A stretch of DNA of 39,479 nucleotides from Candidatus Omnitrophota bacterium (GTDB lineage Bacteria; Omnitrophota; Gorgyraeia; Duberdicusellales; 4484-171), in assembly GCA_023228195.1 (NCBI GenBank), contig JALOBR010000002.1:1-39479 (forward strand), given 5' to 3'. Below, piece by piece: positions 5,846 through 22,588 of the stretch. A program made the position numbers and the translations under genes. Position 1 is the first letter of the stretch. Each line of letters opens with the position of its first letter. Below the pieces are notes generated by a model. That model was not told the DNA's origin. It worked only from the letters and a program-made list of their open reading frames with translations, and ran no database searches.

Positions 5846-6011
5846 AAGTTGGGAGGGGTAAATACCCCGCTCGCTCCCTTAGGTCGCTCAGGGGTAAGTC
5901 CAACGAGACTTACGTTTTTTTAAGTCCTGACCGTCTTGATTGTCTACGAGGGCAGGCGCGGCGGGCGTGCGAAGAAAAAACGTGTAGTCGAATTGTCATT
6001 AGGAGGTATTT
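5846..6011 (+). promoter_or_regulatory. Conserved structured leader element, copy 1 (type A; RBS box AGTCGAATTGTCATTAGGAGG at 5986-6006)
   Basis: Shares the exact 23-mer TAGTCGAATTGTCATTAGGAGGT with copies at 16624-16646 and 29920-29942. CCAACGAGACT lies at 5900-5910. The ACGTTTTTT/AAAAAACGT stem flanks a long GC-rich insert. Confidence 0.6.
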
Positions 6012-6253: not shown

Positions 6254-6280
6254 CCCCGCCTCTTTAGGCCGGGGATTTAT
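6254..6280 (+). terminator. Terminator-like GC hairpin after the 70-aa ORF
   Basis: CCCCGCC-tcttta-GGCCGGGG, followed by ATTTAT. Confidence 0.4.
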
Positions 6281-6327
6281 GGAAGGCTTTATTCAATTCA
6301 ACTTCATCTAAAGTTAAGGAGAAAACA

Positions 6328-6978: not shown

Positions 6979-7080
6979 CACGAATTGTCACGAATTTAGA
7001 ACAAATTTTCACGAATAAATTTATGGTAGATTTATTTTCCCATTCGTGGCAATTCGCCTTTAATCAGTGGATATTCGTGT

Positions 7081-8253: not shown

Positions 8254-8269
8254 TTAAAATTTTACTAAA

Positions 8270-8400
8270 GCACCTCGGCTTTAATGTGGCGCCGAGTGCG
8301 TGCTTTCTGCACAGCACCTCGGCTTTAATGTGGCGCCGAGTGCGTGCTTTCTGCACTGCACCTCGGCTTTAAAGGAATGCCGAGTGTGCGCTTTCTGCGC
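8270..8400 (+). repeat. Three tandem copies of a 44-nt stem-loop module abutting the RBS of the acyl-CoA ligase gene
   Basis: Units are 8270-8313, 8314-8357 (43/44 identical) and 8358-8400 (diverged). Each has CTCGGC-loop-GCCGAG and GTGC-TTTCT-GCAC hairpins. In unit 3 the second hairpin is GCGC-TTTCT-GCGC. Confidence 0.8.
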
Positions 8401-8415
8401 AAGGAGGACCCATAT

Positions 8416-9996: not shown

Positions 9997-10721
9997 TGCA
10001 AAGAGATGTCCATCTGCACGCAAAAGGATTACTTGAGTCTTTACAATTCCGCCAGGGTGATTTTGGCGAAATCGGCATTATCAGCGGACAGCACCAAAGA
10101 GCCCAAAGATGCCTTCAGTATTTGGAAAATCCCGTGAAAAATTTTACTTTTTTAGGTTACACCTTCTGGACCGGCTTATATAAAGGAAAGAAAGTAACTG
10201 TCGGTAACGGCGGTTTCTATGCGCCGGATTCAGCATTTGTTACGGAAATTTTATGCGCGGGGGGAATTAAAACGCTCATCCGGCTTGGTTCTTGCGGAGG
10301 CATGAAACAGGAAATGACTGTCGGAGATTTTGTCGTGGTCGATAAGGTAATAAGAGGCGACGGCGCAACGCGTTATTACGTTGACGATAATTTTGTGGCG
10401 CAAGTAGATAAAGAATTAACCGGTAAACTGGCAGAAATTTTTAAGAAGGAAGGCACGGTTTATCAGGGTGGATGCTGGACAACAGATGCGATGTTTAGAG
10501 AAACAAAAGAAATCGTAAATCCTTATATAGAAAAAGGCGCGATTTGCGTGGATATGGTAACAAGCCCGTTTGTTACGGTTTCCAATGTTTACAAAACGAA
10601 AGTCGCCGCAATTTTGGTAGTTTCAGATAATCTTTTAACCGGTGAGATGGGCTTTGCAGATTTTCGTTTATTTAACGCGGAAGAAAAAATGACAAAAACA
10701 ATATTCGAAATAATAAGTTAG
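9993..10721 (+). CDS. Nucleoside phosphorylase family-1 protein (PNP/UDP/MTAP-like)
   Basis: ATGA overlap with the ligase stop and AGGAG 7 nt upstream. LIRLGSCGG, a DxxIRGDG-type segment and ICVDMVTSP fit the PNP_UDP_1 fold. Confidence 0.75.
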   Translation: MMQRDVHLHAKGLLESLQFRQGDFGEIGIISGQHQRAQRCLQYLENPVKNFTFLGYTFWTGLYKGKKVTVGNGGFYAPDSAFVTEILCAGGIKTLIRLGSCGGMKQEMTVGDFVVVDKVIRGDGATRYYVDDNFVAQVDKELTGKLAEIFKKEGTVYQGGCWTTDAMFRETKEIVNPYIEKGAICVDMVTSPFVTVSNVYKTKVAAILVVSDNLLTGEMGFADFRLFNAEEKMTKTIFEIIS

Positions 10722-10738
10722 TTTTATAAGGGAGTTAT

Positions 10739-11002
10739 ATGCCAGAAATGCAATGGAGCGCGAAAGCCAAGGAAATTTTTGATAAGGTGATAAGCAACCT
10801 TCCGCAATTTCATCGTTCAATCGCCGAGAGATTGGTTAAGGAGTCAGCTGAAGAAATTGCAAAAAACAAAAAATTGACAATTGTGGAAGAGAAAGAACTG
10901 GTGGAAGCTTTTTTCCAGGAAATTCCCCCGGCCTTTAAGGATATGATGAAAAGGTTGTTTACTAAATTAGGTATTGAATACGAGAAATATGGAGTTTCTT
11001 GA
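10739..11002 (+). CDS. PCP-reductase-domain family small protein (87 aa)
   Basis: GGGAG RBS. W-S-x-x-A-K-x-x-F-x-K-V...P-x-F-x-R...A-E resembles the protochlorophyllide reductase 57-kDa C-terminal (PCP_red) domain pattern. Confidence 0.55.
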   Translation: MPEMQWSAKAKEIFDKVISNLPQFHRSIAERLVKESAEEIAKNKKLTIVEEKELVEAFFQEIPPAFKDMMKRLFTKLGIEYEKYGVS

Positions 11003-11078
11003 TGGTTCAGATTAGCGCAGACCCGCCTAAATAAAAATATCAAAGTGGCGGGGAAGCGGATGACTACAGATAAAAACC

Positions 11079-11119
11079 ATCCGCGATCATCTGTGATTTC
11101 TTATTTGTGATTATCTGTG
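11079..11119 (+). promoter_or_regulatory. Array of four ATCYRYG direct repeats (starts 11079, 11089, 11103, 11113) upstream of the PanE-fusion gene
   Basis: ATCCGCG-atc-ATCTGTG-atttctt-ATTTGTG-att-ATCTGTG. It aligns column by column with 3809-3849. Confidence 0.45.
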
Positions 11120-11135
11120 TAATAAAAAATATAAT

Positions 11136-12743
11136 ATGAAGATAGCAATAATAGGTCCGGGCGCGATAGGTGGTTTAGTCGCAGGGTATCTTAAGGAGCA
11201 AGGCGAAGATGTATTCCTCGTCGGCACCAAAGACGCGGTTGAGGCAATTAATAAGAAAGGCCTCTCAGTTTCCGGCGTGCGCGGGAATATTAAGGTAAAT
11301 ATTCAGGCGTCCCTTTCTTTAAATAAAAAAGTAGACCTTATAATTTTAGCTACTAAAACGCAGGACATAGAAAAAGCTTTAACGGAAAATAAGAAATACC
11401 TGGACGATACAATTATTCTAACCACGCAAAACGGCGTAGAGGCTGACGAAATTGTCGCGCAATTTATTCCCAAAGAAAATATCATCTCAAGTGTTGTGAT
11501 GTTTGGCGCGACACGTCTTACGCCAGGAGAGATAGTTCATAATTTTGAGAGAAAATGGGTAATCGGCAAGCCTTTCGGAAAAAATGATGATTGGGTTAAG
11601 CGGGTATCTATATTACTTGGCAGGATTTTTCCTATTGAAATAACTGATGATATTAAAGGAATGAAATGGCTTAAGGTTTTCGCAAATGCCAACAACTGTA
11701 TTCCCGGAATTACCGGCAAAAGCATGCAGGAATGTTTCGCTAATTTAGATTTATGCGAAATAAGTATCGGCATATGGCAGGAAGGTCTTGGCGCGATAAA
11801 AAAATCCGGAATACATCTTGTTAATCTTCCGGATTTTACTATCGAGCAGGTGACGAAACTTTCTTCTATGCCTATAAAAGAAGCAGCAAAGATATTCTCC
11901 GGCATAATGATAAATTTAAGCAAAGAGCCTTTATACGGCTCAATCTTACAGAGCATAAAAAGGGGTAAGCCTTCCGAGATAGATTATTTAAACGGAGCAT
12001 TCCTCAGCTTAGGAAGAAAAAATTCGTTCCATACGCCCCTTAATAAGAAATTAGTCGAACTTGTGAAAATAGTAGAAAAAAATAAAAAGTTTTTAAGCAT
12101 GGATGAATTAATCGCCAAAACTAAAAACCTGATTCCGCAAACAGGTTTCGCGGGAGAAGAAAGAGTAAACACGCCTTTCCCGCGCTTAAAATTAACTGTA
12201 AATAAAGTTGAAGGCGATTGTTATCATGGATACAAACAAGGCGATGAGATAATTTTAGAAGATTTCACTCATGCGCCGAAGCATTTTTGCCTGGGGCTTG
12301 CCCATGCGTTGTTTCCTGTAATTTACGCTTTAAGCTTTGGCGCAAAGTTTGGTTTCAGGGATAACCAGCGCTCGCTTCTGGTTACTTGCCCGGATGGCGG
12401 AAAACTGGAATTTAAGGCAGAAATTTTTGATAAAGAAGGAAAGGTTGAACAAATAGAAAAAGACCCAAACCATAAAGGGCCGAATCCGAAAGATATGGTT
12501 TTAGAGGTAGTCGAGTCAAAAGGTAAATGCGCTTATCAGTATAAGCTTGGAGATAAATTTGAAGTCAAAGGGCTTAAGTGCCCGGAAGGATTTTGCGGCG
12601 CAGCGTATCATTGCGCATTTCCGGCGCTCTTTGCGCTTAATTTCGGCGCGAAGTTTTTCTTTATGGATGACCCGGATGGCATTAATACTGTGACCTGTCC
12701 GGATGGCGGGAATATTGTGTTTAAGGTGAGCAGAAAAAAGTAA
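11136..12743 (+). CDS. Fusion protein: ketopantoate reductase-like (PanE/ApbA) oxidoreductase plus two tandem TIGR04076-like Cys-rich domains
   Basis: N-terminus IAIIGPGAIGG (Rossmann fold) and SILQSIKRGKPSEIDYLNG (ApbA_C). The C-terminus holds two about 85-aa repeats, each with ...C..G....FP.....FGAKF........TCPDGG..FK. The second repeat has CPEGFC. Confidence 0.8.
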   Translation: MKIAIIGPGAIGGLVAGYLKEQGEDVFLVGTKDAVEAINKKGLSVSGVRGNIKVNIQASLSLNKKVDLIILATKTQDIEKALTENKKYLDDTIILTTQNGVEADEIVAQFIPKENIISSVVMFGATRLTPGEIVHNFERKWVIGKPFGKNDDWVKRVSILLGRIFPIEITDDIKGMKWLKVFANANNCIPGITGKSMQECFANLDLCEISIGIWQEGLGAIKKSGIHLVNLPDFTIEQVTKLSSMPIKEAAKIFSGIMINLSKEPLYGSILQSIKRGKPSEIDYLNGAFLSLGRKNSFHTPLNKKLVELVKIVEKNKKFLSMDELIAKTKNLIPQTGFAGEERVNTPFPRLKLTVNKVEGDCYHGYKQGDEIILEDFTHAPKHFCLGLAHALFPVIYALSFGAKFGFRDNQRSLLVTCPDGGKLEFKAEIFDKEGKVEQIEKDPNHKGPNPKDMVLEVVESKGKCAYQYKLGDKFEVKGLKCPEGFCGAAYHCAFPALFALNFGAKFFFMDDPDGINTVTCPDGGNIVFKVSRKK

Positions 12744-12809
12744 CACATCATACGTATCGGATAACGCGTTTTTATGACGTGTTACGTGATGCAATTAAAG
12801 GAGTTTTAG

Positions 12810-14063
12810 ATGAGACGAGTAGTTATAACAGGCATAGGGGTAATTAGCGCGGCAGGCGAGGACAAAAATACTTTTTACGATAATCTTATCGCGGGTAAGC
12901 CTTTCGTTGAAAGGGTAGAAAACTTCGACGTAAGTTTATTTGTCTCAAAAATTGCTTCGCAGGATTTAGGTTTTGACCCGCTAAAATTCGGCATTAAAGA
13001 TCATTTTCGTATGGATAGGTATGTCCAATTCGGTATTGCCGCCGCAAAACAGGCAGTTGAGGACAGCCACATTGATTTCGATAAAATAAACAGGAAAAAA
13101 TGCGGTGTAATTTTAGCAAACGCAATTTGCGGAACGCGTTTTATGGAAGAGGAATTTCTGCTTGTAACCGATTGGGGAAAAAAGCCGATTGACTCAAGAA
13201 AGGGCAGGCCTTATCTTTATGATGCCGCCATGTTTAACACCCCAAGCGCGGAGATTGGGGCGATTTATCATACCCAGGGGCTTAATTGTACGATTTCAAC
13301 AGGGTGCACTGCCGCGACAGATTCGCTTGGGTTTTCTTTTGAGCTGATTCGTGAAGGCCGGCAGGATATAATTATTGCTGGCGGCACCGAAGCGCCGGTA
13401 TGCCCAATTACCTTTGGCGCATTTGATGTAGTAAATGTTTTAGCTAAAAATAATGATGAGCCGCACAAAGCAAGCCGGCCATTTGATAACAAGAGAAACG
13501 GTTTTGTAATTTCTGAAGCCGCAGGCGTTGTGATGCTTGAAGAATTAGAGCACGCAAAAAAGCGCGGTGCGCATATCTACGGAGAACTGGTCGGTTACGG
13601 CACAAGCTGCAATGCCTTCCATATGACGGATTTACCTGAAGACGGTGAGGCAATGGAGCGCTGCATTAAAGATGCGATTAAAGATGCGGGTATAAAAAAT
13701 GAAGATATAGATTATATAAATACGCATGGCTCATCTACCCGTCAAAATGATGTATTTGAAACAAATGCCTATAAAGCGGTATTCGGTGATTATGCTTATA
13801 AGCTTCCGATAAGTTCAATCAAGTCTATGATTGGGCATCCTTTGGCAGCGGCGAATGCTGTTGAAAGCGTTCTATGCGCAATGATTTTTGAAAAAGGATA
13901 TCTACCTCCTACGATAAATCAGGAAGAACCGGATCCAAAATGTGATTTAGATTATATCCCGAATGTAAAAAGACAATATATGCCTAATTACATATTAAAA
14001 ACAAGCAGCGGATTCTCTGGAATACATTCGTCGATTATATTTAAAAAATGGAGTGGAAAATGA
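12810..14063 (+). CDS. Type II PKS ketosynthase alpha (KSalpha)
   Basis: AAAGGAG RBS. VVITGIGVISAAG. Active-site Cys in TISTGCTAATDS (Cys166, TGC 13305-13307). The FHMTD and NTHGSST histidines complete the C-H-H triad. Confidence 0.88.
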   Translation: MRRVVITGIGVISAAGEDKNTFYDNLIAGKPFVERVENFDVSLFVSKIASQDLGFDPLKFGIKDHFRMDRYVQFGIAAAKQAVEDSHIDFDKINRKKCGVILANAICGTRFMEEEFLLVTDWGKKPIDSRKGRPYLYDAAMFNTPSAEIGAIYHTQGLNCTISTGCTAATDSLGFSFELIREGRQDIIIAGGTEAPVCPITFGAFDVVNVLAKNNDEPHKASRPFDNKRNGFVISEAAGVVMLEELEHAKKRGAHIYGELVGYGTSCNAFHMTDLPEDGEAMERCIKDAIKDAGIKNEDIDYINTHGSSTRQNDVFETNAYKAVFGDYAYKLPISSIKSMIGHPLAAANAVESVLCAMIFEKGYLPPTINQEEPDPKCDLDYIPNVKRQYMPNYILKTSSGFSGIHSSIIFKKWSGK

Positions 14064-15292
14064 AAGAAAGAGTAGCGATAACAGGCATCGGAGTTGTTTC
14101 ACCGGCCGGTTTAAAAAAAGAAACTTTCTGGGCAAATTTAAAACGCGGGGATTCCTTTATAGATGAAATTACGCGTTTTGACGCATCGCTTTATCCGTCA
14201 CGCATAGCCGGGCAGGTTCATGAGCTGGACCATTATTCGCATTTGCCAAGCCGTCTTGTAAAAAAGATTGATGTGTTTTCTCATATGGCATTAGTTGCCA
14301 GCGAACAGGCGCTTCAGGATGCAAAAATAGATTTAAATAACGTTGATAAAAAACGCGTGGGCATTTTTATGGGTAATGCTATCGGTGGATGGTTATTCGC
14401 AGAAACAGAACTGCGCGATATGTATATTGAAGGAAGAGAAGGCGTTTCTCCTTATATGGCTTCGGCATGGTTTCCTGCTGCGCCCCAGGGGCAAATTACA
14501 ATTTTTTATGGATTTAAGGGCTACAGCAAAACCGTAGTAGCCGATAAAGCTTCTTCCGCGCTTGCTCTGTGGTACGCGGCAAAAAATATAAGTGAAGGTA
14601 AAAATGATTACGTTCTTGCCGGAGGAATGGAAGCCCCGATTACGCCATACGCGCTTTTAAGCTCAAATTCCTGCGGCCAATTATCTAAAAACAACCTTAA
14701 TCCCAGAAAAGCTTATAAGCCTTATGATTTATATCGAGACGGTTTTGTTTTAGGTGAGGGCTCCGGAATAGTGAATCTCGAAAAAGAAGAACATGCCCAA
14801 AAAAGAGGTGCCCATATTTATGGATTTTTAAAAGGTGTCGGGTTTTCCTCGGATGGTTATCACTATGAGCGCTATAGCCCGAATTCAGAAAGTTTTGAAT
14901 ATGCAATAGAAGAATGCCTGAAAGACGCAGGTTGGACAAAAAAAGAAATAGATTATATTTGTTTGGACGCAGAAGCAACAACTTTTGGCGATTACCTTGA
15001 GACGCAGGCGCTTAAGAACGTATTTGGCAAAGAACTTAAAAATATTTCACTCAGCGCGCCAAAGAGTATGTATGGAAATCTTTTAGGGGCTCAAACGGCG
15101 TTAGATTTGATATCAACGCTATATTCGATGAGCAATAACCTGGTTTTCCCGACAATTAATTATGAGATGAATGATCCTTATTGTGATTTGGACTATACGC
15201 CAAACGTTGCAAAGGAAAGAAAGATAAATAAAGCATTGTTGTTCGCACGCGGCCGCGGCGGGATAAATGTGGTTTTGGCAGTAGAAAAGTAA
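14060..15292 (+). CDS. Type II PKS ketosynthase beta / chain-length factor (CLF)
   Basis: Thiolase-fold paralogue of the upstream KS without the active-site Cys (TVVADKASSALA aligns with TISTGCTAATDS). The second His is also lost (LDAEATTFGD). ATG 14060 overlaps the KSalpha stop as ATGA, with GGAG 6 nt upstream. An alternative start exists at 14048. Confidence 0.85.
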   Translation: MKERVAITGIGVVSPAGLKKETFWANLKRGDSFIDEITRFDASLYPSRIAGQVHELDHYSHLPSRLVKKIDVFSHMALVASEQALQDAKIDLNNVDKKRVGIFMGNAIGGWLFAETELRDMYIEGREGVSPYMASAWFPAAPQGQITIFYGFKGYSKTVVADKASSALALWYAAKNISEGKNDYVLAGGMEAPITPYALLSSNSCGQLSKNNLNPRKAYKPYDLYRDGFVLGEGSGIVNLEKEEHAQKRGAHIYGFLKGVGFSSDGYHYERYSPNSESFEYAIEECLKDAGWTKKEIDYICLDAEATTFGDYLETQALKNVFGKELKNISLSAPKSMYGNLLGAQTALDLISTLYSMSNNLVFPTINYEMNDPYCDLDYTPNVAKERKINKALLFARGRGGINVVLAVEK

Positions 15293-15444
15293 TTTAAAGG
15301 TATAACCCCGAAGTGTCTATATACTCAAAAAATATCTCATGAGAGTACTCATTAAATATTTTTTGAGAGCACTTCGGGATAGCTCGACTAAGTATTTTTT
15401 CATATTTACCATATGAAAAAATACAAGTCTCACTAGGAGGTTTT
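15293..15444 (+). promoter_or_regulatory. Conserved structured leader element, copy 2 (type B; AGTCTCACTAGGAGG at 15426-15440)
   Basis: Hairpin 1 is CCCGAAGTG...CACTTCGGG (15307-15378). It is followed by GACT, hairpin 2 GTATTTTTTCATA/TATGAAAAAATAC, AGTC, then the SD. It lies upstream of the ACP gene. Confidence 0.6.
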
Positions 15445-15675
15445 ATGGCGCTTAAGGAAGACGTTGTAAACGCGATTGCGGATATTTTAGATGTAAAGGC
15501 CGACGAAATAAAAGATAGCGAAACGCTGTATGATTCAATTGGCGTAGATTCAACGGAAATGGTTGAGCTTTGCGTTTCTTTGGGGAAAAAGTTTGGTATA
15601 AAAATTGCTACAAATGAAATAACAAAGTCTTCAACCCCGCTTGAGATAGCGGCGTTGGTAGAGAAAAAGAAATAA
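15445..15675 (+). CDS. Acyl carrier protein
   Basis: 76 aa, acidic. Phosphopantetheine site GVDSTEMVEL (Ser36, TCA 15550-15552). AGGAGG RBS. Confidence 0.88.
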   Translation: MALKEDVVNAIADILDVKADEIKDSETLYDSIGVDSTEMVELCVSLGKKFGIKIATNEITKSSTPLEIAALVEKKK

Positions 15676-15704
15676 TAATCAGCAGTAAGCACAATAGTCA
15701 GAAT

Positions 15705-16502
15705 ATGAAAATAATCGATTTAAGCCTGCCCATTGATGATAAAGCTTTTGAGGTGCATCATGTTGAAATTGAGCGCGTGTCTCATAAGGCAGGAGTCGAG
15801 AAGTTTAACCGCGTTTTAATGGGGAAAACCTTGAAAGGTAAGCTCCAATATATATTAGGTAAGCGTATCGTTAAAAAAGAAGACCTGCCGGATGAAGAGT
15901 TTTTATCTTTAGAAATTGTACATTCACCGGTTCATATCGGAACCCATCTGGATTATTCTTTTCACTACGGTTCAAAATCAGAAGGCCGGGCCTCTAAAAC
16001 TGCGGAGGAAATTCCTCTTGAATGGTGCTATCAAAACGGAGTAAAGCTTGATGTCTCATATAAGAAGCTGAATGAAACAATAACCGCTGTCGACTTAGAA
16101 GGTGTTTTAAAGAAAATAAATTATACATTAAAGCCTTTTGATATTGTTTTATTATATACGGGTGCTGATAAATTATATGGCGGACCAAAGTATTTTAGCG
16201 ATTATCCGGGAGTGGATATTTCCGCTATCGATTATTTGCTGGATAAAGGAATTAAAATTTTCGGAGTTGACACTATGGGTATAGACCGGCCGTATAGATT
16301 TATGCTTAAAGAATTTTTAGAAACAAAAGATACTAAGAGATTGTACCCGGCGCATTTTTACGGCAGAAAAAGAGAATTTATTCATATAGAGCGTTTAGCA
16401 AATCTTGAAAAACTGCCGGATTTTGGTTTTAAGGTAAATTGTTTTCCGGTAAAAATTAAAACTACAGGCGCAGCTTGGGCGAGAGTAGTTGCTATTTTAT
16501 AA
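15705..16502 (+). CDS. Cyclase family protein (PF04199 putative cyclase / kynurenine formamidase fold)
   Basis: MKIIDLSLPI N-terminus and an HxGTHxDxxxH metal motif (VHIGTHLDYSFH). Confidence 0.75.
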   Translation: MKIIDLSLPIDDKAFEVHHVEIERVSHKAGVEKFNRVLMGKTLKGKLQYILGKRIVKKEDLPDEEFLSLEIVHSPVHIGTHLDYSFHYGSKSEGRASKTAEEIPLEWCYQNGVKLDVSYKKLNETITAVDLEGVLKKINYTLKPFDIVLLYTGADKLYGGPKYFSDYPGVDISAIDYLLDKGIKIFGVDTMGIDRPYRFMLKEFLETKDTKRLYPAHFYGRKREFIHIERLANLEKLPDFGFKVNCFPVKIKTTGAAWARVVAIL

Positions 16503-16650
16503 AAATAATATAATAATTTATCCCGACTCGCCTGCATATCGTTTAAATTTTCGGAGAAAATTTAAACGAAACTCGTCGGGACAATTCCAATGAGACTTGC
16601 CTTTTTACGATAGTAAAAAGGCTTAGTCGAATTGTCATTAGGAGGTAAAA
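16503..16650 (+). promoter_or_regulatory. Conserved structured leader element, copy 3 (type A; box 16625-16645)
   Basis: Hairpin 1 is CCCGAC..[CGTTTAAATTTT/AAAATTTAAACG]..GTCGGG. It is followed by ACAATTCCAATGAGACTT, hairpin 2 GCCTTTTTAC/GTAAAAAGGC, then AGTCGAATTGTCATTAGGAGG. Confidence 0.65.
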
Positions 16651-17088
16651 ATGGGCCATACAGTTAATTCAATTATAATTAATGCTCCTTACGAGAAAAT
16701 TTTTGATATTTCTAATGATATTGAACGCTGGACAGAATTATTCGGCGGTGAGTATAAGGAGGCAACCGTAGAAAAAAAAGAAGGTAATAAAATAACATTT
16801 AGGCTTATGGATGATGAAGGCAGGACATGGAAATCGTGGCGCCTTCTTTTTAAGGACAAGAATTTTGCCTACGCCGAAAGAGAGGAACCGAAATTTCCTT
16901 TTAAGTTTATGAAAATCGTTTGGCTTTATATACCAAGGCCCGCCGGTGTTGAAATGGTTTGGATCCAGCATTTTGAAATGGATGATAAAGCTAAATTTAC
17001 TGACGAGCAGGTAGAAGGCTTTATCAATAAACACTCGAAAGATAATTTGAAGATATTTAAGGACATAATTGAGAGAGAGGCGAAATAG
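16651..17088 (+). CDS. SRPBCC-superfamily polyketide cyclase/aromatase-like protein
   Basis: 145 aa. The N-terminus (SIIINAPYEKIFDISNDIERWTELF) fits the Polyketide_cyc2/TcmN-ARO/CYC pattern. AGGAGG RBS. It lies in a KS/CLF/ACP context. Confidence 0.7.
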   Translation: MGHTVNSIIINAPYEKIFDISNDIERWTELFGGEYKEATVEKKEGNKITFRLMDDEGRTWKSWRLLFKDKNFAYAEREEPKFPFKFMKIVWLYIPRPAGVEMVWIQHFEMDDKAKFTDEQVEGFINKHSKDNLKIFKDIIEREAK

Positions 17089-17165
17089 CCGTCAGATATC
17101 AGGTACCAGCCAGCAGCTTTTAAAGAGCTGAAATCTGAAAGCTGACGCTTGAAAGCTTTTAAAAA
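17089..17165 (+). repeat. TCAG/CTGA intercistronic hairpin cassette, copy 1 (SRPBCC-MFS spacer)
   Basis: GAAATAGCCGTCAGATATCAG...CAGCT-tttaaag-AGCTG...CTGAAAGCTGACGCTTGAAAGC. It runs from the stop codon to the start codon. Confidence 0.55.
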
Positions 17166-18287
17166 ATGAACAAACTAACTTTCATAATTCTTTGTTTAGA
17201 GGGTGCGATTTTATCGTTTAATGTCGCAGCGTCGGCAGCTCTTATCCCTTCTGTGGCAACAGATTTTGGAATTTCTGAGTTTGTTGCAGGACGAATTGTC
17301 TGGCTTTATATGATTCCTTACGGCTTTGCCGCTCTCCTTTACGGTCCCTTAGTGCGGGCGTTTGACGCTAAGAAGATTGAGCTGATTTGTCTTTTATCCT
17401 TTTCCGCAGCTAATTTACTGGCTGCTTTTTCAAAAAATACCGCTATGCTTTTTACGGCAAGATTTTTTATGGGGGTATTCGGCGCGTCCGTTATACCCCT
17501 TGCTTTAATTTTGATAGCGCAGTCATATGGAAGCGAAAAAAGAGGAAGAATCGTTGGTGTGTTTTTTGCTTCTACATTCATAGCCTCTCTTTTAGGGCTG
17601 TTTTTAAGCGGTATTCTACATTGGCGTTTGATTTTCTTATTGCCGGCTATTTCAGGGTTTCTGCTTTTGCCCTTAATGTATTTTTGTTTACCGCATTTTA
17701 CGCCGGTTAATAAAAAGTTTACCATCAATTACATAGAACCGTTTAAAGATAAAGTTATACTGTATATGTTTGCCTATATATTTATTATAAGTTTGCTTTA
17801 TCATGGCCTTCAGCAATGGTTTTCGGTCTATTTTTCTACCCGGTATAGCCTGGGGCAATTTGCAATCAGTATGCTTATTACTTTAACCAGTTTAAGCGGA
17901 GTATTCGGAGAAACCCTTGGCGGAATATTCGCCGATAAAATTGGCAGGATTAGAACCGTTAATTTAGGGATAATTTTAATGATTATAAGCGTATTATTTC
18001 TTATTTTAAAAATGCCGGTTTTTACGCTCGGTTTGATTATGGTTATCTGGGGATTAGGCTGGACATTTAACCATGCCGGAATTTCTACAATACTTACGGA
18101 TTTACCGAAGAAATTTTTACATGAAGCAGCCAGTTTAAACTCAAGCGTGCGTTTTGTTTCCGGCGGTATTGGGGTAGCTGCTTCAGGGCTGATTATGCAG
18201 AAAAGTTTTGTAGCCGGATTTATGTTGTTCGGCGGATGTTTAATTGCGTTATTACTTTGTACGAAATATTTAATCATTAAACTATAA
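17166..18287 (+). CDS. MFS transporter (probable exporter)
   Basis: 373 aa with about 12 hydrophobic helices. MFS loop motifs GPLVRAFDAKK and GIFADKIGRIR. Confidence 0.8.
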   Translation: MNKLTFIILCLEGAILSFNVAASAALIPSVATDFGISEFVAGRIVWLYMIPYGFAALLYGPLVRAFDAKKIELICLLSFSAANLLAAFSKNTAMLFTARFFMGVFGASVIPLALILIAQSYGSEKRGRIVGVFFASTFIASLLGLFLSGILHWRLIFLLPAISGFLLLPLMYFCLPHFTPVNKKFTINYIEPFKDKVILYMFAYIFIISLLYHGLQQWFSVYFSTRYSLGQFAISMLITLTSLSGVFGETLGGIFADKIGRIRTVNLGIILMIISVLFLILKMPVFTLGLIMVIWGLGWTFNHAGISTILTDLPKKFLHEAASLNSSVRFVSGGIGVAASGLIMQKSFVAGFMLFGGCLIALLLCTKYLIIKL

Positions 18288-18300
18288 ACAAGGAGGCAGG

Positions 18301-19074
18301 ATGAGTGATCTTAAAGGTAAAACTGCAATTGTCACCGGAGCAAGCCGCGGGATTGGGAAAGCTCTTGCTTGTGTGGCAGCCAGTTTAGGCGCGAATGTAG
18401 CTATCGCAGCGAGAGGAGAAGGTCCGTTAAAAGAAACTGCCGCAGAAATAGAAAAAACATACAAGGTTAAAGTCCTGGCTGTGCCCTGCGATGTTACAAA
18501 GCTGGAAGATTTGGAAAATTTAGTGAATAAAACAAAAGAAAAATTCGGAAACATTGATATCTTAATAAATAACGCAGGCGTATCCAGTCAATATCCTTTT
18601 GAAAAACAGCCGATTGAAGATTTTGAGCGCCTTGCGCATACAAACTATTTAGGTTATGTGCGTATGATTCGTCTGGTGATAAACGACATGATAAAAAATA
18701 AATCCGGGGCAATAATCAATATGGTTTCCGGCTCAACGCTTTGCGACCCGCTGCCGAGAAATTTTATTGTGTATAGCTCGCTAAAGGTTGGGCTTCGCGC
18801 TTTTTCTAAAGGCTTGTTCTGGGAAGTGCGAGACCACGGAATAAAAGTTACTTCGCTTTTTCCGGGCGTAACCGACACTGATTTAACCGGAAAATTACAG
18901 GAAATTACAGCGAATAGTTCGCGTTTGATGACAACTGAGGCAATTGAAAATGCGGTAAGGTTTGCTTTGACCGTTCCGGCTAATGTTTGCCCCTTGGAGA
19001 TAGCGGTAATAAATCAGCAAACCCCATGGACAAAGCCGGTTATACCTTTCAAACAGGACCATCCGGAGAAGTAG
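18301..19074 (+). CDS. Short-chain dehydrogenase/reductase (probable polyketide ketoreductase)
   Basis: AAGGAGG RBS. TGASRGIGKA, NNAG and a catalytic YSSLK (YxxxK) motif. Confidence 0.85.
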   Translation: MSDLKGKTAIVTGASRGIGKALACVAASLGANVAIAARGEGPLKETAAEIEKTYKVKVLAVPCDVTKLEDLENLVNKTKEKFGNIDILINNAGVSSQYPFEKQPIEDFERLAHTNYLGYVRMIRLVINDMIKNKSGAIINMVSGSTLCDPLPRNFIVYSSLKVGLRAFSKGLFWEVRDHGIKVTSLFPGVTDTDLTGKLQEITANSSRLMTTEAIENAVRFALTVPANVCPLEIAVINQQTPWTKPVIPFKQDHPEK

Positions 19075-19251
19075 GAATAGTGAGATGCGTAATTTTATAA
19101 TAACAATAATCCCGCCTCACAGAAAATGCGTAAAATTTTCACACTCGCTTCGCTCGCAGGAAAATTTTATAGCGTTCGGCGGGACAATTCGACTAGGCAA
19201 TTTTTCATACAGGAAGTCTGAGAAATTGCAAGTCTCATTGGGAGGTTTCTA
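19075..19251 (+). promoter_or_regulatory. Conserved structured leader element, copy 4 (type B; AGTCTCATTGGGAGG at 19231-19245)
   Basis: Hairpin 1 is CCCGCC...GGCGGG (19111-19183). It is followed by ACAATTCGACT, hairpin 2 GCAATTT/AAATTGC, AGTC, then the SD. It lies upstream of the radical SAM gene. Confidence 0.6.
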
Positions 19252-20709
19252 ATGAAGATCTTATTCGTTCAGCCGAAAATCGGCGCTTGGGCAACGCATG
19301 GCGTTCACTTTGCACCTAACCAGTTATATGCCCAGTGGGGAGCATATATCCGCGAGAAAGGTTATGCTGATCTTGAAGTTTTAGATGCAACTGTCCTGGG
19401 TATTCCAATTGAGCACTTGGCCGAAAAGGTTAAAGAAAAGAATCCCGATGTGGTTGTTTTGGGCGATATGATTCATTGTTCGGTAGGCTTTGGCGTAATC
19501 TGGCATTTTAACCAGGCAGCGGCGAGAATAAAACAGGTTTTACCAAAAACAAAAGTTATTATGGGCGGGCTTTGGTATTCCGCTCTTCCTGTTCAGACCC
19601 TGGAAGATAACCCCGCGATAGATTATGTGGTTATGGGCGAAGAAGAATCTTTCTATGATTTAATTGATGCTATAGATAAAGGAAAAAACATAAAAGATGT
19701 TGCAGGGGTAACTTGCCGCATAGACGGAAAACCTGTAATGGGGCCGCATAAGCCATTATTGCAGAATTTGGATACATTGCCGCTCCCCGCTTATGATTTG
19801 TTTGCTATGGATAAATACGTAGGGCATACTTTTTGGAAGCCGTTTGTTGAAATGATAACTTCCCGTGGTTGCCCCTCGGCTTGCACCTTTTGTTATGAGT
19901 GGGATCAGTACGACCCGCGCAGTCCCCAGGATTTTTTAACCTGGCGCGCAAAGTCCCCGGAACGCGTTGTTGAAGAGCTTGAGCTTCTGCATAAAATGGG
20001 CACAAAAGTCGTGGTTATACAGGATGATAACTTTAACGTTAATCCCGACAGAGTTGAAAAATTCTGCAACTTAAAGAAAGCAAAAAACAATCCGATTAAA
20101 TGGGTTTCTCTGGGAAGGGCGGTTGATTGGATTAATTGCGAAAAAATTCTGCCTCTCATGAAAGAAACAGGATTGTTTATGGGAGTATTCGGAATTGAAG
20201 TTACCACCCCGGAAGAACTTAAAAAAATTGCAAAAGGCATAACCATTGACCAGATTAAAAAGACAATCGATATTTTACGCGCCCAGAATATCGCAATTGT
20301 CGCTGATATTATGATGGGTTTTGATGATGATACGGAATATTCGATAAAACAGAGATTTGAATTTACCGATGAGGTTGATCCGGATATTCTTTGGGTAGGC
20401 TACGTTACCCCTGCTCCTAATTCACCAATCTGGAGACAAAGGGTTAAACGCGGCGAAATAGACATCAAAAAAATTGATTTTCTTAAATGGGATTTCTTAC
20501 ACCCGGTTATGCCGACAACACACCTGACCCTGGAAGATTACGGAAGGCTTGGTACGTGGTGTATGCGCGAATTTTTCTCAAAGCCGGGGCGTATTCAGAG
20601 AATTATGACCAGTAATTTTGATCCGCTTGCAAAACTTTGCTTCGAAGATGTTATGCACGGAGTTTCAAAGTGGGAAGCAGGCGCGGTTAAGGGAGAGAAA
20701 CATATATAA
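19252..20709 (+). CDS. B12-binding-domain radical SAM enzyme (class B-like)
   Basis: N-terminal Rossmann-like cobalamin-binding region (DVVVLGD...IMGG) followed by the CPSACTFC (CX3CX2C) radical SAM cluster motif. GGGAGG RBS. Confidence 0.85.
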   Translation: MKILFVQPKIGAWATHGVHFAPNQLYAQWGAYIREKGYADLEVLDATVLGIPIEHLAEKVKEKNPDVVVLGDMIHCSVGFGVIWHFNQAAARIKQVLPKTKVIMGGLWYSALPVQTLEDNPAIDYVVMGEEESFYDLIDAIDKGKNIKDVAGVTCRIDGKPVMGPHKPLLQNLDTLPLPAYDLFAMDKYVGHTFWKPFVEMITSRGCPSACTFCYEWDQYDPRSPQDFLTWRAKSPERVVEELELLHKMGTKVVVIQDDNFNVNPDRVEKFCNLKKAKNNPIKWVSLGRAVDWINCEKILPLMKETGLFMGVFGIEVTTPEELKKIAKGITIDQIKKTIDILRAQNIAIVADIMMGFDDDTEYSIKQRFEFTDEVDPDILWVGYVTPAPNSPIWRQRVKRGEIDIKKIDFLKWDFLHPVMPTTHLTLEDYGRLGTWCMREFFSKPGRIQRIMTSNFDPLAKLCFEDVMHGVSKWEAGAVKGEKHI

Positions 20710-20717
20710 TGAGCTCA

Positions 20718-20752
20718 GCATTTTTCCAAGTGTTAACACGAGGGAAAAATGC
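20718..20752 (+). terminator. Stop-proximal hairpin GCATTTTTCC-N14-GGGAAAAATGC (family shared with 27125-27165)
   Basis: 10-bp stem beginning 9 nt after the radical SAM stop codon, with no U-tract. It shares TTTTTCCAAGTG...GGAAAAATG with the copy after the ALDH gene. Confidence 0.35.
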
Positions 20753-20761
20753 TAGAGCGAA

Positions 20762-20890
20762 TTACCCCAAACCACTCTCAAAAAATATAATTTAACTAAG
20801 CCTGACTTTGTCAGGCAAGGTTCATTAGATTTTTTGAGTATGTAGGTGGTTTGGGGTGCAGCGTATCAATCAAGAGGCTACTTTAAATTT
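20762..20890 (+). promoter_or_regulatory. Divergent relative of the leader element (long hairpin 20764-20857)
   Basis: ACCCCAAACCAC-TCTCAAAAAAT ... ATTTTTTGAG-..-GTGGTTTGGGGT shares the CTCAAAAAAT/ATTTTTTGAG arms with hairpin 1 of copy 2. The inner hairpin is GCCTGAC/GTCAGGC. It lacks the AGTC...AGGAGG box. Confidence 0.35.
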
Positions 20891-21775
20891 ATGATTTGCG
20901 ATAGCCATATACATTTCATTCCGCAGGAAATATCAGAAAATACTTCCTTTTACAAAGGAATATGGTCCGATAAGGTACGGCTTTTTGAATTTATTGATAT
21001 GAATCAAATTGAAAAAGCCCTTTTAATTTATCCTGCCACAGATGCCCATTTAAAGCTAGGCCGGCAGAAATTATGTGAACTTTACAATTTCTTTCTTGGC
21101 GCGTTGATAGAAGAAAATCCGAAAATTATTGGCTTTGGGATAGTTGATTTAAGCAGCAACATATCTTCGCAGGTAAAACATTTAAGAGAAGAAGGTTTTA
21201 AGGGGATAAGTATAGCTTCGAGCGAAGACGGCGCGTTCGTTTTAGATAAACTTAAGCCTTTGTTCGAGGCCGCAGAGAAACATAAACTCGCAATATTCGT
21301 ACACCCGCAGACAATAAACCCGATAGGTTTCGAGCGCGTAAAGGACCCGCTGCTGATGCCTGTTTTAGAATACAGTTTTGATAGTTCTATGTTTTTAGGG
21401 ATATTAATGATGGAAGGGATTTTAGAAAAATTTAATATAAATTTTATTTTTTCTTCACTCGGAGGGGTCACCCCATTTTTAAAGGACAGGTTCGACAGGG
21501 TTTATATGATGCTTAAAACCCGCGACATGGTTAAAGATTTGGGAAGGTCCCCTTCAGAAATACTTAAAAGGGTATATGTGGACACTTCTGGCTCGTCTTT
21601 GGCAAACATAAAACTTGCAATTGATTTATTTGGTGAAGATAAAATTCTCTGGGGCTCGGATTATCCGGTACCGCCCAATATAAAAGATAATATTACGCAA
21701 TTAGACGCGCTGGGCAAAGATACCGCAGAAAAAATAGTATCCGGTAATTTTCATAGTCTTTTTGATACTAAATGA
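20891..21775 (+). CDS. Amidohydrolase_2 (ACMSD/decarboxylase-hydrolase) family protein
   Basis: MICDSHIHF metal-binding start, FVHP, DTSG and LWGSDYP motifs. The tracked GTG 20846 start lies inside a long hairpin arm, so ATG 20891 is preferred. Confidence 0.78.
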   Translation: MICDSHIHFIPQEISENTSFYKGIWSDKVRLFEFIDMNQIEKALLIYPATDAHLKLGRQKLCELYNFFLGALIEENPKIIGFGIVDLSSNISSQVKHLREEGFKGISIASSEDGAFVLDKLKPLFEAAEKHKLAIFVHPQTINPIGFERVKDPLLMPVLEYSFDSSMFLGILMMEGILEKFNINFIFSSLGGVTPFLKDRFDRVYMMLKTRDMVKDLGRSPSEILKRVYVDTSGSSLANIKLAIDLFGEDKILWGSDYPVPPNIKDNITQLDALGKDTAEKIVSGNFHSLFDTK

Positions 21776-22581
21776 AAATTTTTTGCAATTCAAAATTAAT
21801 TGAAAAAGAATCTCTTGAAGAAGTATTTGAACCGGGATTTTTATTCGGCTGGGGCGCTTTTGAAACTTTTCGCGCTTATTCTGGCAAAGTGCCGTTTTTA
21901 GATTTACATATTGCCCGTTTAAACGATGCCCTTAATGCATTAGGCATAGAAGAGCTTAAGGTAGATTTCAAAACCAGGATAAATGAACTTTTAAGGGTAA
22001 ATAATTTAGAAGATGCTTATATAAGAATTACTGCTTATAAAAAAAGAGAGTCCACGGGAGTGCTTATCTATGCGGACAAGTTCGGTTATTATCCCCAAAG
22101 CGCATACGAAAAAGGATTTACCGCCGTTATTTCTCCCTATAGAAGAAATATAAACAATAATTTTTATACCATTAAATCATTAAGTTATCTTGAAAACAGG
22201 CTTTCCTGGTTTGAGGCGCAAAAGCAAAGTAAAGATGAAGCTCTTGTTTTAAATGAAGATGGATTTTTATCGGGAGGCTCCCGCAGCAATTTATTTATTA
22301 TAAAAAACCAGGAGGTAGTAACACCGAGCATTGAAAGCGGAGCGTTTGACGGCATAACAAGAAAAATAGTAATTAGCGAGTTGAAAAAGATGGATATAAA
22401 CGTAAAAGAGGAGAAAACCAGCATCGAAGATTTGTTTTCCTGCGCAAACGAGGCATTTTTGACAAGCGCTTTACTGGAGGCGATGCCTTTGGTAGAATGT
22501 GACAACAAAGCAATTTCAAATGGCAAACCAGGAGATCTTACGATTAGGATTTTAAAGCAATATAAAAGCCTTATAAGTTGA
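21772..22581 (+). CDS. Class IV (fold type IV) PLP enzyme, aminodeoxychorismate lyase / branched-chain or D-amino-acid aminotransferase-like
   Basis: ATGA overlap with the amidohydrolase stop. 269 aa. A Lys in TIKSLSYLEN (K-x-x-N/S-Y-L pattern), and GITR and EAFLTSA segments. Confidence 0.72.
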   Translation: MKIFCNSKLIEKESLEEVFEPGFLFGWGAFETFRAYSGKVPFLDLHIARLNDALNALGIEELKVDFKTRINELLRVNNLEDAYIRITAYKKRESTGVLIYADKFGYYPQSAYEKGFTAVISPYRRNINNNFYTIKSLSYLENRLSWFEAQKQSKDEALVLNEDGFLSGGSRSNLFIIKNQEVVTPSIESGAFDGITRKIVISELKKMDINVKEEKTSIEDLFSCANEAFLTSALLEAMPLVECDNKAISNGKPGDLTIRILKQYKSLIS

Positions 22582-22588
22582 GGATATT

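What the first reader, a model, noticed from the sequence alone, without database searches (positions are those of the whole stretch)
16503..16650. Repeated structured leader element ending in an identical RBS box (5 clear copies in 39 kb, 3 inside the PKS cluster)
The exact 23-mer TAGTCGAATTGTCATTAGGAGGT occurs at 5985-6007, 16624-16646 and 29920-29942. The copies at 16.6 kb and 29.9 kb share 29 identical nt (GCTTAGTCGAATTGTCATTAGGAGGTAAA). In each case it sits 5-6 nt before the ATG of an unrelated gene: the ferritin-like ORF, the SRPBCC cyclase and RNase Y.

Shorter variants precede the ACP gene (AGTCTCACTAGGAGG, 15426-15440) and the radical SAM gene (AGTCTCATTGGGAGG, 19231-19245).

All five share one architecture, in this order:
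- a long 5' hairpin closed by CCCG../..CGGG-type pairs;
- a linker (ACAATTC in the best copies);
- GACT;
- an AT-rich hairpin with a T-run arm and an A-run arm;
- AGTC;
- the Shine-Dalgarno sequence.

A sixth, more divergent relative precedes the amidohydrolase gene (20764-20857). An element that supplies both the 5'-UTR structure and the RBS to functionally unrelated genes is unusual. It could be a mobile or duplicative expression cassette, a shared post-transcriptional regulon signal, or an mRNA-stabilising or processing module. The copy in front of rny is notable in that respect.
Basis: seen in the sequence. Interest (0 to 1): 0.75.

Follow-up and report, generated by a model that had tools for sequence, protein, structure and literature searches.

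The report
Mosaic hairpin repeats between Omnitrophota genes
The repeated "leader with an identical RBS box" is real, but it is a fast-turning-over family of modular hairpin repeats that fills the gap between one gene's stop codon and the next gene's own ribosome-binding site in a few uncultivated Omnitrophota; this is a new family of a known kind of bacterial intergenic repeat, not a conserved regulatory leader.

Summary
The 23-mer occurs exactly three times (0 expected). All five named copies share one architecture. The "sixth relative" is an inverted copy, and a seventh lies at 27116-27175 (minus strand).

Each copy is a P1 hairpin followed by a rod-like hairpin, the "core". The base of the core is YAAU-UC-[4 bp]...[4 bp]-UC-AUUR. 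The three best copies carry a second core nested in inverted orientation (CAAUGA...GAAUUG, with a GA/GA mismatch).

Pairing covaries across copies. A covariance model built only from copies in other organisms recovers every window copy.

The host is Candidatus Omnitrophota. Relatives with 85-96% identical neighbouring proteins have the same GGAGG at short, element-free spacers, so the element does not supply the RBS. Copies are gained, lost and swapped between close relatives. Cores occur in both orientations. Other lineages carry unrelated palindromes at the same sites.

Nothing matches in Rfam, phage or plasmid collections.

Best reading: a new REP/BIME/BOX-like mosaic palindromic repeat family. 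It is co-transcribed and probably acts only as a generic intercistronic stem-loop next to the SD. A specific trans-acting partner for the invariant boxes is not excluded.

The parts
5865..6001 (+). Copy A (type 1), between pheT and a 70-aa ORF. P1 is 5865-5894, TAAGTC 5895-5900, CAACGA 5901-5906, GACT 5907-5910. A long apical insertion follows, then AGTC 5986-5989, GAATTG 5990-5995, TCATTA 5996-6001. Host SD GGAGG is 6002-6006 and ATG is 6012.
   Evidence: An identical copy is on a JGI contig (L006). An alternative terminator-like hairpin lies at 5894-5913.
15306..15435 (+). Copy D (type 2), between the second KS gene (14048-15292) and ACP. P1 is 15306-15378, TAGCTC 15380-15385, GACT 15386-15389, then the T-run/A-run hairpin, AGTC 15426-15429, TCACTA 15430-15435. 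SD is 15436-15440 and ATG is 15445.
   Evidence: z = -8.4. Found by the foreign covariance model at 22.6 bits.
16522..16640 (+). Copy B (type 1), between the cyclase and the SRPBCC gene. P1 is 16522-16580, CAATTC 16582-16587, CAATGA 16588-16593, GACT 16594-16597. The apical hairpin is 16598-16624, then AGTC 16625-16628, GAATTG 16629-16634, TCATTA 16635-16640. SD is 16641-16645 and ATG is 16651.
   Evidence: (z = -6.4)
19111..19240 (+). Copy E (type 2), between KR and the B12-radical-SAM gene. P1 is 19111-19183, CAATTC 19185-19190, GACT 19191-19194, AGTC 19231-19234, TCATTG 19235-19240. SD is 19241-19245 and ATG is 19252.
   Evidence: (z = -4.6). Its closest relative sits at a different junction in L017.
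20707..20858 (-). Copy F, an inverted type-2 copy. The core is 20707-20764: on the minus strand it reads TAATTC-GCTC...GAGC-TCATTA, and on the mRNA strand TAATGA...GAATTA. P1 is 20765-20858. The TAATGA box overlaps the native TAA stop of the radical-SAM gene (20707-20709).
   Evidence: It is the best hit of the foreign covariance model (46.5 bits, E = 1.6e-9).
27116..27175 (-). Copy G, an inverted core without P1. The mRNA strand reads TAGTGA-ACAC...GCGT-GAACTA. TAG at 27116-27118 is the stop codon of ORF 25553-27118.
   Evidence: (28.4 bits, E = 4e-5)
29846..29936 (+). Copy C (type 1), between the 5-formyl-THF cyclo-ligase gene and rny. P1 is 29846-29865, TAGTTC 29867-29872, CAATGA 29873-29878, GACT 29879-29882, AGTC 29921-29924, GAATTG 29925-29930, TCATTA 29931-29936. 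SD is 29937-29941 and ATG is 29948.
   Evidence: z = -5.4. Absent from the same junction in L008, L009, L010, L013, L014 and L015.

Best explanation
It is a lineage-specific family of mosaic palindromic intergenic repeats in a narrow clade of Candidatus Omnitrophota.

**Anatomy (shown).**
- There are two modules.
- The first is P1, a hairpin usually closed by CCC(C)/GGG(G).
- The second is a rod-like 'core'. Its base is a YAAU:AUUR helix, then a symmetric 2x2 mismatch, then a freely covarying 4-bp helix. Above that is a stem with a U5/A5 tract and a variable tip.
- A forward core gives UC/UC and the boxes YAAUUC / UCAUUR. An inverted core gives GA/GA and the boxes YAAUGA / GAAUUR.
- 'Type 2' copies are P1 plus a forward core.
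- 'Type 1' copies (the three with the identical 23-mer) are P1, the forward outer boxes and an inverted core nested inside.
- Longer composites are an inverted core, P1 and a forward core.

**Position (shown).** The element occupies the spacer between the stop codon of one gene and the pre-existing SD of the next co-directional gene. The forward box UCAUUR ends 0-3 nt before GGAGG. The inverted box UAAUGA abuts or overlaps the upstream stop codon.

**Spread (inferred).** It spreads and is exchanged at the DNA level, by an unidentified copy-and-paste or gene-conversion process acting on hairpin DNA.

**Effect (inferred).** Once present it is transcribed within the operon mRNA and folds into two very stable adjacent stem-loops immediately 5' of the SD. 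The most likely effect is generic: a barrier to exonucleases, a processing site, and a structural insulator of the downstream RBS. This would uncouple neighbouring cistrons, as REP, ERIC and Correia elements do.
For: **Real family with conserved structure**
- 17 copies were aligned on their boxes. Pairing is 96.7%, 6 of 8 base-of-rod pairs show double changes, and 0 of 500 shuffles reach this.
- The 4-bp helix takes the forms GACU, GCAC, GCAG, ACAG, GCUC and CAAU, each with its complement.
- Three copies of one subfamily at non-orthologous sites show 6 compensatory pairs out of 30.
- Folding z-scores are -3.7 to -8.4.
- A covariance model built only from L015, L017 and L029 puts F, G, B, D, E, C and A at the top seven ranks in the window. 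It also finds forward and inverted cores in L007 and L028 and forward cores in L017.

**The SD belongs to the host**
- Element-free junctions in relatives read AAGGAGG / GGAGG at the same distance from the ATG.

**Turnover**
- Copy C is absent where RNase Y is 96% identical.
- Copies B and D are absent where the radical-SAM protein is 94% identical.
- At the rSAM junction the window carries an element whose closest relative sits upstream of KR in L017. L015 and L017 carry a different subfamily at that junction.
- The efp-accB junction holds type 1 in three lineages, a degenerate composite in L028, and nothing in L029.

**Both orientations and no strand asymmetry**
-.

**Same sites, other palindromes**
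- Related genomes carry unrelated palindrome families at the same sites.

**Narrow distribution**
- The 21-mer occurs in one of 185,579 species-representative genomes (2 loci) and in 4 JGI contigs. It does not occur in viral contigs, plasmids or phages.
- No Rfam family matches.
Against: - **No mobilising enzyme is known.** There are no terminal inverted repeats and no consistent target-site duplication, so the DNA-level mechanism is undefined.
- **Invariant type-1 boxes.** The type-1 boxes (13 + 21 nt) are identical between organisms whose accB third-codon positions are only 53% identical. That is stronger sequence constraint than a generic hairpin needs. It points to sequence-specific recognition, either by a host factor or by the element's own propagation machinery.
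- **Bias next to the SD.** The module nearest an SD is always a forward box (UCAUUR), never GAAUUR. This could reflect selection at the RNA or translation level.
- **No expression data.** Co-transcription, processing and any effect on stability or translation are inferred from position only.
- **Biased sampling.** Genome-wide copy number and orientation could not be measured. Only about 0.3 Mb of relatives was examined, and some loci were fetched because they contain the element.
Confidence: 0.55

Rival explanations
1. It is purely selfish or neutral palindromic DNA with no function in the mRNA. It inserts wherever a short intercistronic spacer tolerates it. Box conservation reflects only what the unknown propagation machinery recognises.
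For: - Rapid gain, loss and swapping between close relatives.
- Cores occur in both orientations.
- Stems are almost entirely Watson-Crick, and sense and antisense fold equally well.
- Unrelated palindromes occupy the same sites in sister lineages.
- Ancestral spacers are only 10-30 nt long. Any tolerated insertion between the stop codon and the SD must therefore lie close to the SD.
Against: - The forward box abuts GGAGG within 0-3 nt, while 14-36 nt are left on the stop-codon side. Random insertion does not predict that asymmetry.
- A 95-180 nt hairpin pair inside essential operons (rpmI-rplT, efp-accB, upstream of rny) will affect the mRNA whether selected for or not.
- No transposase, TIR or TSD was found.
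Confidence: 0.2
2. It is a dedicated cis-regulatory RNA. The invariant type-1 boxes would form the binding site of a trans-acting protein, RNase or small ligand that controls SD access. Two mutually exclusive pairings would act as the switch: GRYARUUC:GAAUUGUC leaves the SD free, and UCCAAUGA:UCAUUAGGA sequesters it. This would define a post-transcriptional regulon.
For: - 34 nt are invariant across species despite near-saturated synonymous sites.
- The minimum-free-energy folds of B, C and L003 pair UCC with GGA of the SD.
- The tandem GA/GA internal loop is a common protein-recognition motif (own knowledge).
- The element is always immediately 5' of a start site when in the sense orientation.
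Against: - The downstream genes are unrelated: an SRPBCC cyclase, rny, a 70-aa ORF, accB, rplT and a STAS-like protein, by my reading of its sequence.
- It is not retained at orthologous genes.
- The same boxes occur inverted, at stop codons and with no SD (copies F, G and L007a).
- Predicted SD accessibility is inconsistent among copies.
- No Rfam family matches.
Confidence: 0.15
3. It is a mobile expression cassette that brings a promoter as well as a leader. Transcription would start at the foot of P1, giving the downstream gene a 5'-terminal protective hairpin.
For: - A -10-like hexamer lies 0-11 nt upstream of P1 in many copies.
- B has TTGCTA-17-AATAAT.
- TATAAT is conserved upstream of the rSAM-junction element in the window, L015 and L017.
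Against: - Promoter-like sites are not enriched over shuffles (32 found against 39 expected).
- The conserved TATAAT belongs to the flank, not to the swapped element.
- In A, D and L004 the hexamer is so close that a start site would fall inside P1.
- Promoters of this phylum are uncharacterised.
- AT-rich spacers give such hexamers by chance.
Confidence: 0.07

Closest known systems
REP / BIME (bacterial interspersed mosaic elements) and REPINs of proteobacteria
   Same: - They are short palindromic units combined in mosaics with conserved linker motifs.
- They lie in transcribed spacers between co-directional genes.
- Units occur in both orientations and as inverted doublets.
- Families are lineage-specific and turn over quickly.
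- They are known to act as mRNA stem-loop barriers (own knowledge; REPIN evolution in PMC3116915; overview in PMC3184786).
   Different: - There is no GT[AG]G foot and no sequence similarity.
- Units are much longer (a 45-110 nt rod plus a 20-95 nt P1) and their stems are hypervariable.
- The forward end sits flush against the SD rather than just after a stop codon.
- A RAYT transposase was not looked for and could not be.
BOX (pneumococcus), ERIC/IRU (enterobacteria) and Correia/NEMIS (Neisseria) elements
   Same: - They are modular or palindromic repeats of 100-150 nt.
- They are co-transcribed with flanking genes and fold into long imperfect hairpins.
- They alter mRNA processing and stability.
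- They are present or absent between close strains and insert in either orientation (own knowledge).
   Different: - The sequences and the host phylum are unrelated.
- Correia elements have TIRs and a TA duplication, which are not seen here.
- None of these families is reported to abut the SD systematically.
Intercistronic processing and stabiliser stem-loops (phage T7 RNase III sites, B. subtilis cggR-gapA, plastid intercistronic expression element)
   Same: - A stable hairpin lies between cistrons, just 5' of the downstream RBS.
- Processing there yields a protected, translatable downstream mRNA (own knowledge; plastid IEE in PMC2230500).
   Different: - Those are fixed, conserved sites in particular operons, not a dispersed and rapidly exchanged repeat family.
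- Processing here is untested.

Membership tests
REP/REPIN (RAYT-associated) | A 20-40 nt imperfect palindrome with a conserved GT[AG]G at its 5' foot | tested here: not met
   The feet are YAAUUC / UCAUUR around a 2x2 mismatch. GCGTAGC is seen only upstream of the long composites.
REP/REPIN (RAYT-associated) | Extragenic, mostly between co-directional or convergent genes and within transcription units | tested here: met
   Every copy whose flanking genes could be read lies between the stop codon and the SD of co-directional genes.
REP/REPIN (RAYT-associated) | A cognate RAYT (Y1 transposase) gene in the genome, and tens to hundreds of copies | not testable with these tools
   Only a 39-kb window and fetched stretches of at most about 21.5 kb were readable.
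MITE | Terminal inverted repeats | tested here: not met
   Comparing the first 16 nt with the reverse complement of the last 16 nt gave 2-6 matches out of 16.
MITE | Target-site duplication flanking each copy | tested here: not met
   No consistent flanking direct repeat was found. Isolated cases (TCATTR around C and L007b, GGAGG around A) do not generalise.
Mosaic intergenic repeats (BIME/BOX type) | Built from a small set of modules that recur in different combinations and orientations | tested here: met
   The combinations seen are P1 + forward core, inverted core + P1, inverted core alone, inverted core + P1 + forward core, and a forward shell with a nested inverted core.
Cis-regulatory RNA leader / riboswitch | A match to a curated RNA family | tested here: not met
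   Rfam 15 gave 0 hits at gathering score in the whole window. Only chance miRNA/snoRNA-like hits appeared at E <= 10 over 15250-20900.
Cis-regulatory RNA leader / riboswitch | Retained upstream of orthologous genes, or of a coherent regulon | tested here: not met
   It is absent from the same junctions in relatives with 85-96% identical flanking proteins. The downstream genes are functionally unrelated.
Cis-regulatory RNA leader / riboswitch | Structure specific to the transcribed strand | tested here: not met
   Sense and antisense folding energies are similar, G-U pairs are few (34 against 21), and cores occur in both orientations.
Cis-regulatory RNA leader / riboswitch | Covariation supporting conserved helices | tested here: met
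   The caveat is that pairing of the 4-bp helix was partly a selection criterion for the copies, and palindromic DNA gives the same signal.
Integron attC site | R''/R' boxes (RYYYAAC ... GTTRRRY) in a cassette array | tested here: not met
   The boxes are absent on inspection of all copies. The flanking genes are syntenic core and biosynthetic genes, not cassettes.
Intrinsic terminator | A GC-rich hairpin followed directly by a U-tract | tested here: not met
   Neither P1 nor the rod is called a terminator. Only an alternative hairpin in copy A (5894-5913 plus T7) qualifies, and terminator-like sites are not enriched.
Hammerhead ribozyme / kink-turn | A CUGANGA...GAAA core around three stems (hammerhead), or a 3-nt bulge followed by tandem G.A pairs (kink-turn) | tested here: not met
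   CAAUGA / GAAUUG lacks U4 and G5 and has no third stem in the right place. The GA/GA loop is symmetric with no 3-nt bulge (inspection). No Rfam ribozyme hit was found.

The most novel reading that the evidence does not exclude
The type-1 composite is a forward shell plus a nested inverted core. Its 34 nt are invariant across species whose synonymous sites are near saturation. It could be a portable recognition site for a specific trans-acting factor, such as an RNA-binding protein, an endoribonuclease or a DNA recombinase. If so, insertion next to an SD would place unrelated genes (rny, rplT, accB, PKS genes) under a common processing or translational control. That would be a mobile, plug-in post-transcriptional module.
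Probability: 0.18. Interest if true: 0.65.

Novelty: new member of a known kind. Interest (0 to 1): 0.35.

Why it matters
- It documents a previously undescribed intergenic repeat family in Omnitrophota, a phylum known almost only from metagenomes.
- It points to a broader habit of this lineage: intercistronic spacers inside conserved operons are colonised by long, rapidly replaced palindromes.
- For annotation, it warns against reading identical "RBS boxes" as shared regulation, and it explains unusually long structured spacers.
- If the invariant type-1 boxes turn out to have a specific partner, the family would be a natural example of a portable RBS-adjacent control or insulator module. On present evidence it is ordinary in kind.

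Tried and rejected
- **Known RNA families.** Rfam gave nothing at gathering score over the whole window, and nothing meaningful at E <= 10 over 15250-20900.
- **tRNA or tmRNA.** None found.
- **Phage, plasmid or viral origin.** No match.
- **Leader peptide from the AUG in CAAUGA.** Rejected: copy A has ACG, and the reading frames run 3-15 codons and are not conserved (inspection).
- **Hammerhead, kink-turn and attC.** Rejected on their defining cores (see the membership tests).
- **Terminator/antiterminator switch.** Only copy A has a credible hairpin plus U-tract.
- **SD-sequestration switch.** Predicted SD accessibility varies from about 0.01 to 1.0 among copies with no pattern.
- **Promoter carried by the element.** Not enriched; the conserved TATAAT belongs to the flank.
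- **TIR or TSD.** None.
- **Conserved P1-loop motif CUCGCU..GCUCG as a separate widespread module.** It appears in only a handful of copies.
- **G-U strand-asymmetry test for RNA-level selection.** No asymmetry.
- **Looser, sequence-independent descriptor (only UC/UC loops plus pairing).** It recovered nothing beyond box-bearing copies; the reversed-sequence control gave 2 hits.
- **MAFFT on full cores.** It mis-registered type 1 against type 2. The pair counts therefore used compacted sequences in which a GAAA placeholder replaces the variable interior.
- **Literature.** No description of such repeats in Omnitrophota was found.

Full report

Yes. The 23-mer TAGTCGAATTGTCATTAGGAGGT occurs at 5985, 16624 and 29920, all on the + strand. 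There is no further match at up to three mismatches, and shuffles gave none. A repeat search independently returns both the 3' box family and a 5' box family, GGGRYARTTCCAAYGAGACTT. A pattern search finds exactly five GACT...AGTC...GGAGG units, all on the + strand. In each, GGAGG ends 4-6 nt before an ATG. The downstream genes are:
- a 70-aa ORF with no Pfam hit;
- an ACP;
- an SRPBCC cyclase;
- a B12-binding radical-SAM enzyme;
- RNase Y.

Each unit folds as two adjacent hairpins. Folding z-scores are -4.6 to -8.4 for B-E. Copy A carries a GC-rich insertion and gives z = -0.1.

**2. Anatomy**

I aligned 17 copies from the window and other organisms on their boxes. They fit one model:
- a P1 hairpin, followed directly by
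- a rod with the layout 5'-YAAU-UC-[4 bp]-variable stem with a U5/A5 tract-[4 bp]-UC-AUUR-3', followed by
- 0-3 nt and then GGAGG.

In 'type 2' copies (D and E here) the 4-bp helix is GACU, GCAC, GCAG, ACAG or GCUC, always with its complement.

In 'type 1' copies (A, B and C here) the same outer shell encloses CAAU-GA-GACU...AGUC-GA-AUUG. Read on the other strand, that is exactly a type-2 core. So type 1 is a forward shell with a nested inverted core. This explains the three competing pairings that puzzled me at first, including the one RNAfold prefers, which covers GGA of the SD.

On a compacted alignment the eight base-of-rod pairs are 96.7% paired. Six of them show double changes, and 0 of 500 shuffles reach this. 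The caveat is that pairing of the 4-bp helix was partly a criterion for collecting the copies. The outer-helix changes (U-A to C-G, A-U to G-C) were not used when the copies were extracted, although the scans that found some copies required at least three of its four pairs.

**3. Whose genome, and where else?**

RNase Y and radical-SAM homologues at 75-100% identity are annotated as Candidatus Omnitrophota. The distribution of the 21-mer AGTCGAATTGTCATTAGGAGG is narrow:
- one of 185,579 species-representative genomes (MAG DBS2-5.bin57), at two loci: efp->accB and rpmI->rplT;
- four JGI contigs (searched with two positions degenerate, AGTCGAATTGTCAYTRGGAGG): two more efp->accB junctions, the window's own copy A, and a tandem pair before what reads as a STAS-domain gene;
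- no viral contigs, plasmids or phages.

No Rfam family matches. I found no paper describing such repeats in this phylum.

**4. Comparison with orthologous junctions**

I fetched syntenic loci from relatives. Five things follow.

*The SD is the host's.* Where the element is absent, the junctions read ...AAGGAGG(N5-9)ATG. The element therefore ends at UCAUUR and does not supply the RBS.

*Presence is patchy.*

| Junction | Window | Relatives |
|---|---|---|
| upstream of rny | copy C | absent where RNase Y is 96% identical (46-nt spacer) |
| cyclase->SRPBCC | copy B | absent where the radical-SAM protein is 94% identical |
| second KS gene->ACP | copy D | absent where the radical-SAM protein is 94% identical |
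| efp->accB | not in the window | type 1 in three lineages, a degenerate composite in L028, a 23-nt spacer in L029 |

*Copies are swapped.* At the KR->rSAM junction, L015 and L017 carry one subfamily (GAUACUUC... P1, GCAC/GUGC helix). The window carries another subfamily there, and its closest relative sits upstream of KR in L017. The flank TTTTATAATAA(A)CAA is shared by all.

*One subfamily sits at unrelated sites.* It occurs upstream of rSAM in L015 and L017 and upstream of a DUF1844 gene in L029-L033. These copies are about 80% identical, with 6 compensatory pairs out of 30.

*Other palindromes use the same sites.* Sister lineages carry quite different perfect palindromes there, built from GGTTACTT/AAGTAACC, GCAGAT, AACTAC or CAGATG-type oligomers. 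The general phenomenon is colonisation of intercistronic spacers by hairpin repeats. The element in question is one sequence-defined family among them.

**5. Orientation**

Its core is at 20707-20764, and its TAATGA box overlaps the native TAA stop of the radical-SAM gene.

I built a covariance model only from three non-window copies (L015, L017, L029). Its window hits, in rank order, are:
1. that inverted copy (46.5 bits);
2. a new inverted core at 27116-27175, whose TAGTGA box contains the stop codon of ORF 25553-27118 (28.4 bits);
3. then B, D, E, C and A.

In other loci the model finds forward cores, and inverted cores that precede P1 in the long composites. Counting the nested cores of type 1, forward and inverted cores are about equally common. 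Sense and antisense strands fold equally well, and G-U pairs are rare.

The core is therefore a palindromic DNA module, not a strand-specific RNA. What stays constant is that the end facing an SD is a forward box and the end facing a stop codon is an inverted box.

**6. What it most likely is and does**

*Shown:*
- a modular, palindromic, lineage-restricted repeat family;
- it sits inside operons, between a stop codon and the native SD;
- it shows structural covariation and fast turnover.

*Inferred:*
- it propagates or recombines as DNA, by an unidentified mechanism; no TIR or TSD was found, and no transposase could be searched for;
- it is transcribed with the operon;
- two very stable stem-loops flush against the SD act as a generic exonuclease barrier, processing site or RBS insulator.

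REP, ERIC and Correia elements and fixed intercistronic stem-loops have effects of this kind (own knowledge; PMC3116915, PMC3184786, PMC2230500).

*Against a purely generic role:* the 34 nt of the type-1 boxes are invariant between organisms whose accB third-codon positions are only 53% identical. This demands sequence-specific recognition by something. It could be the propagation machinery or a host factor.

**7. Rivals**

- **A dedicated riboregulator or regulon.** This is disfavoured by the unrelated target genes, the loss at orthologous sites, the inverted and SD-less copies, and inconsistent predicted SD accessibility.
- **A promoter-bearing cassette.** Support is weak and unenriched.
- **Known ribozymes, kink-turns, attC sites and terminators.** These fail their defining features (see the membership tests).

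**8. Verdict**

It is wrong on two points: the element does not supply the RBS, and it is not a conserved or strand-specific leader. It is a new member of a known kind, mosaic palindromic intergenic repeats, in an under-studied phylum. Interest is moderate to low, with a minority possibility that the invariant type-1 module has a specific trans-acting partner.

Noticed in passing
window 8269-8400: There are three tandem 44-nt units, two of them identical. Each holds a CACCTCGGC..GCCGAGTG hairpin. They overlap the called GTG start (8344) of the AMP-binding enzyme ORF.
   Followed up: no
window 3686-3800, 25472-25565, 36795-36906; L017 2753-2888: This is a second intergenic family. A/C-rich CCAAAT/CCAAT-type tracts are followed by a complementary GT-rich arm, forming long hairpins upstream of genes.
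   Followed up: partly
window 6979-7080: A long hairpin lies between convergent genes. Its arms (CACGAATTGTCACGAAT / ATTCGTGGCAATTCG) contain the same CGAATTGTCA word as the type-1 3' box.
   Followed up: no
window 6254-6320: A possible degenerate relative of the element: a CCCCGCC..GGCGGGG hairpin, then CAATTC, a 5-bp hairpin and AAGGAG, before the ORF at 6328.
   Followed up: partly
L019, L017, L014, L015, L028 (intercistronic spacers of the syntenic PKS and acc loci): Each related lineage has its own family of near-perfect palindromes built from repeated oligomers (GGTTACTT/GGTTTCTT; GCAGAT; AACTAC; CAGATGACAGATG). They sit at the same gene junctions, and several junctions in one cluster share the same flavour.
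   Followed up: partly
window 5894-5913: Copy A can alternatively form GTAAGTC-CAACGA-GACTTAC followed by T7. This is a terminator-like hairpin just after pheT, made from the element's own 5' boxes.
   Followed up: no
window 20846-20893: The amidohydrolase probably starts at ATG 20891 (MIC...), as its orthologues do (MLCDSH...), not at the GTG at 20846 that lies inside the P1 hairpin.
   Followed up: partly
L008 9955-10000; L015 19389-19437: The element-free rny leader in relatives has its own small hairpin, UCCUUCGAAGGA. It pairs an anti-SD with the first bases of the SD.
   Followed up: no
window 8344-23536 and syntenic loci L014-L019, L025: The type-II-PKS-like cluster is conserved across many Omnitrophota. 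It contains an acyl-AMP ligase, KS/CLF, ACP, two cyclases, KR, a B12-radical-SAM enzyme, an amidohydrolase and an aminotransferase. Small genes come and go between the core genes: an MFS transporter, an S26-peptidase-like gene, a 23S-rRNA-IVS protein and a PDDEXK_3 gene.
   Followed up: no
L028 16846-16992: The spacer after thiC contains what looks like a tRNA gene (GCGGGATTAGCTCAATTGGTAGAGC...). It was not run through ARAGORN.
   Followed up: no
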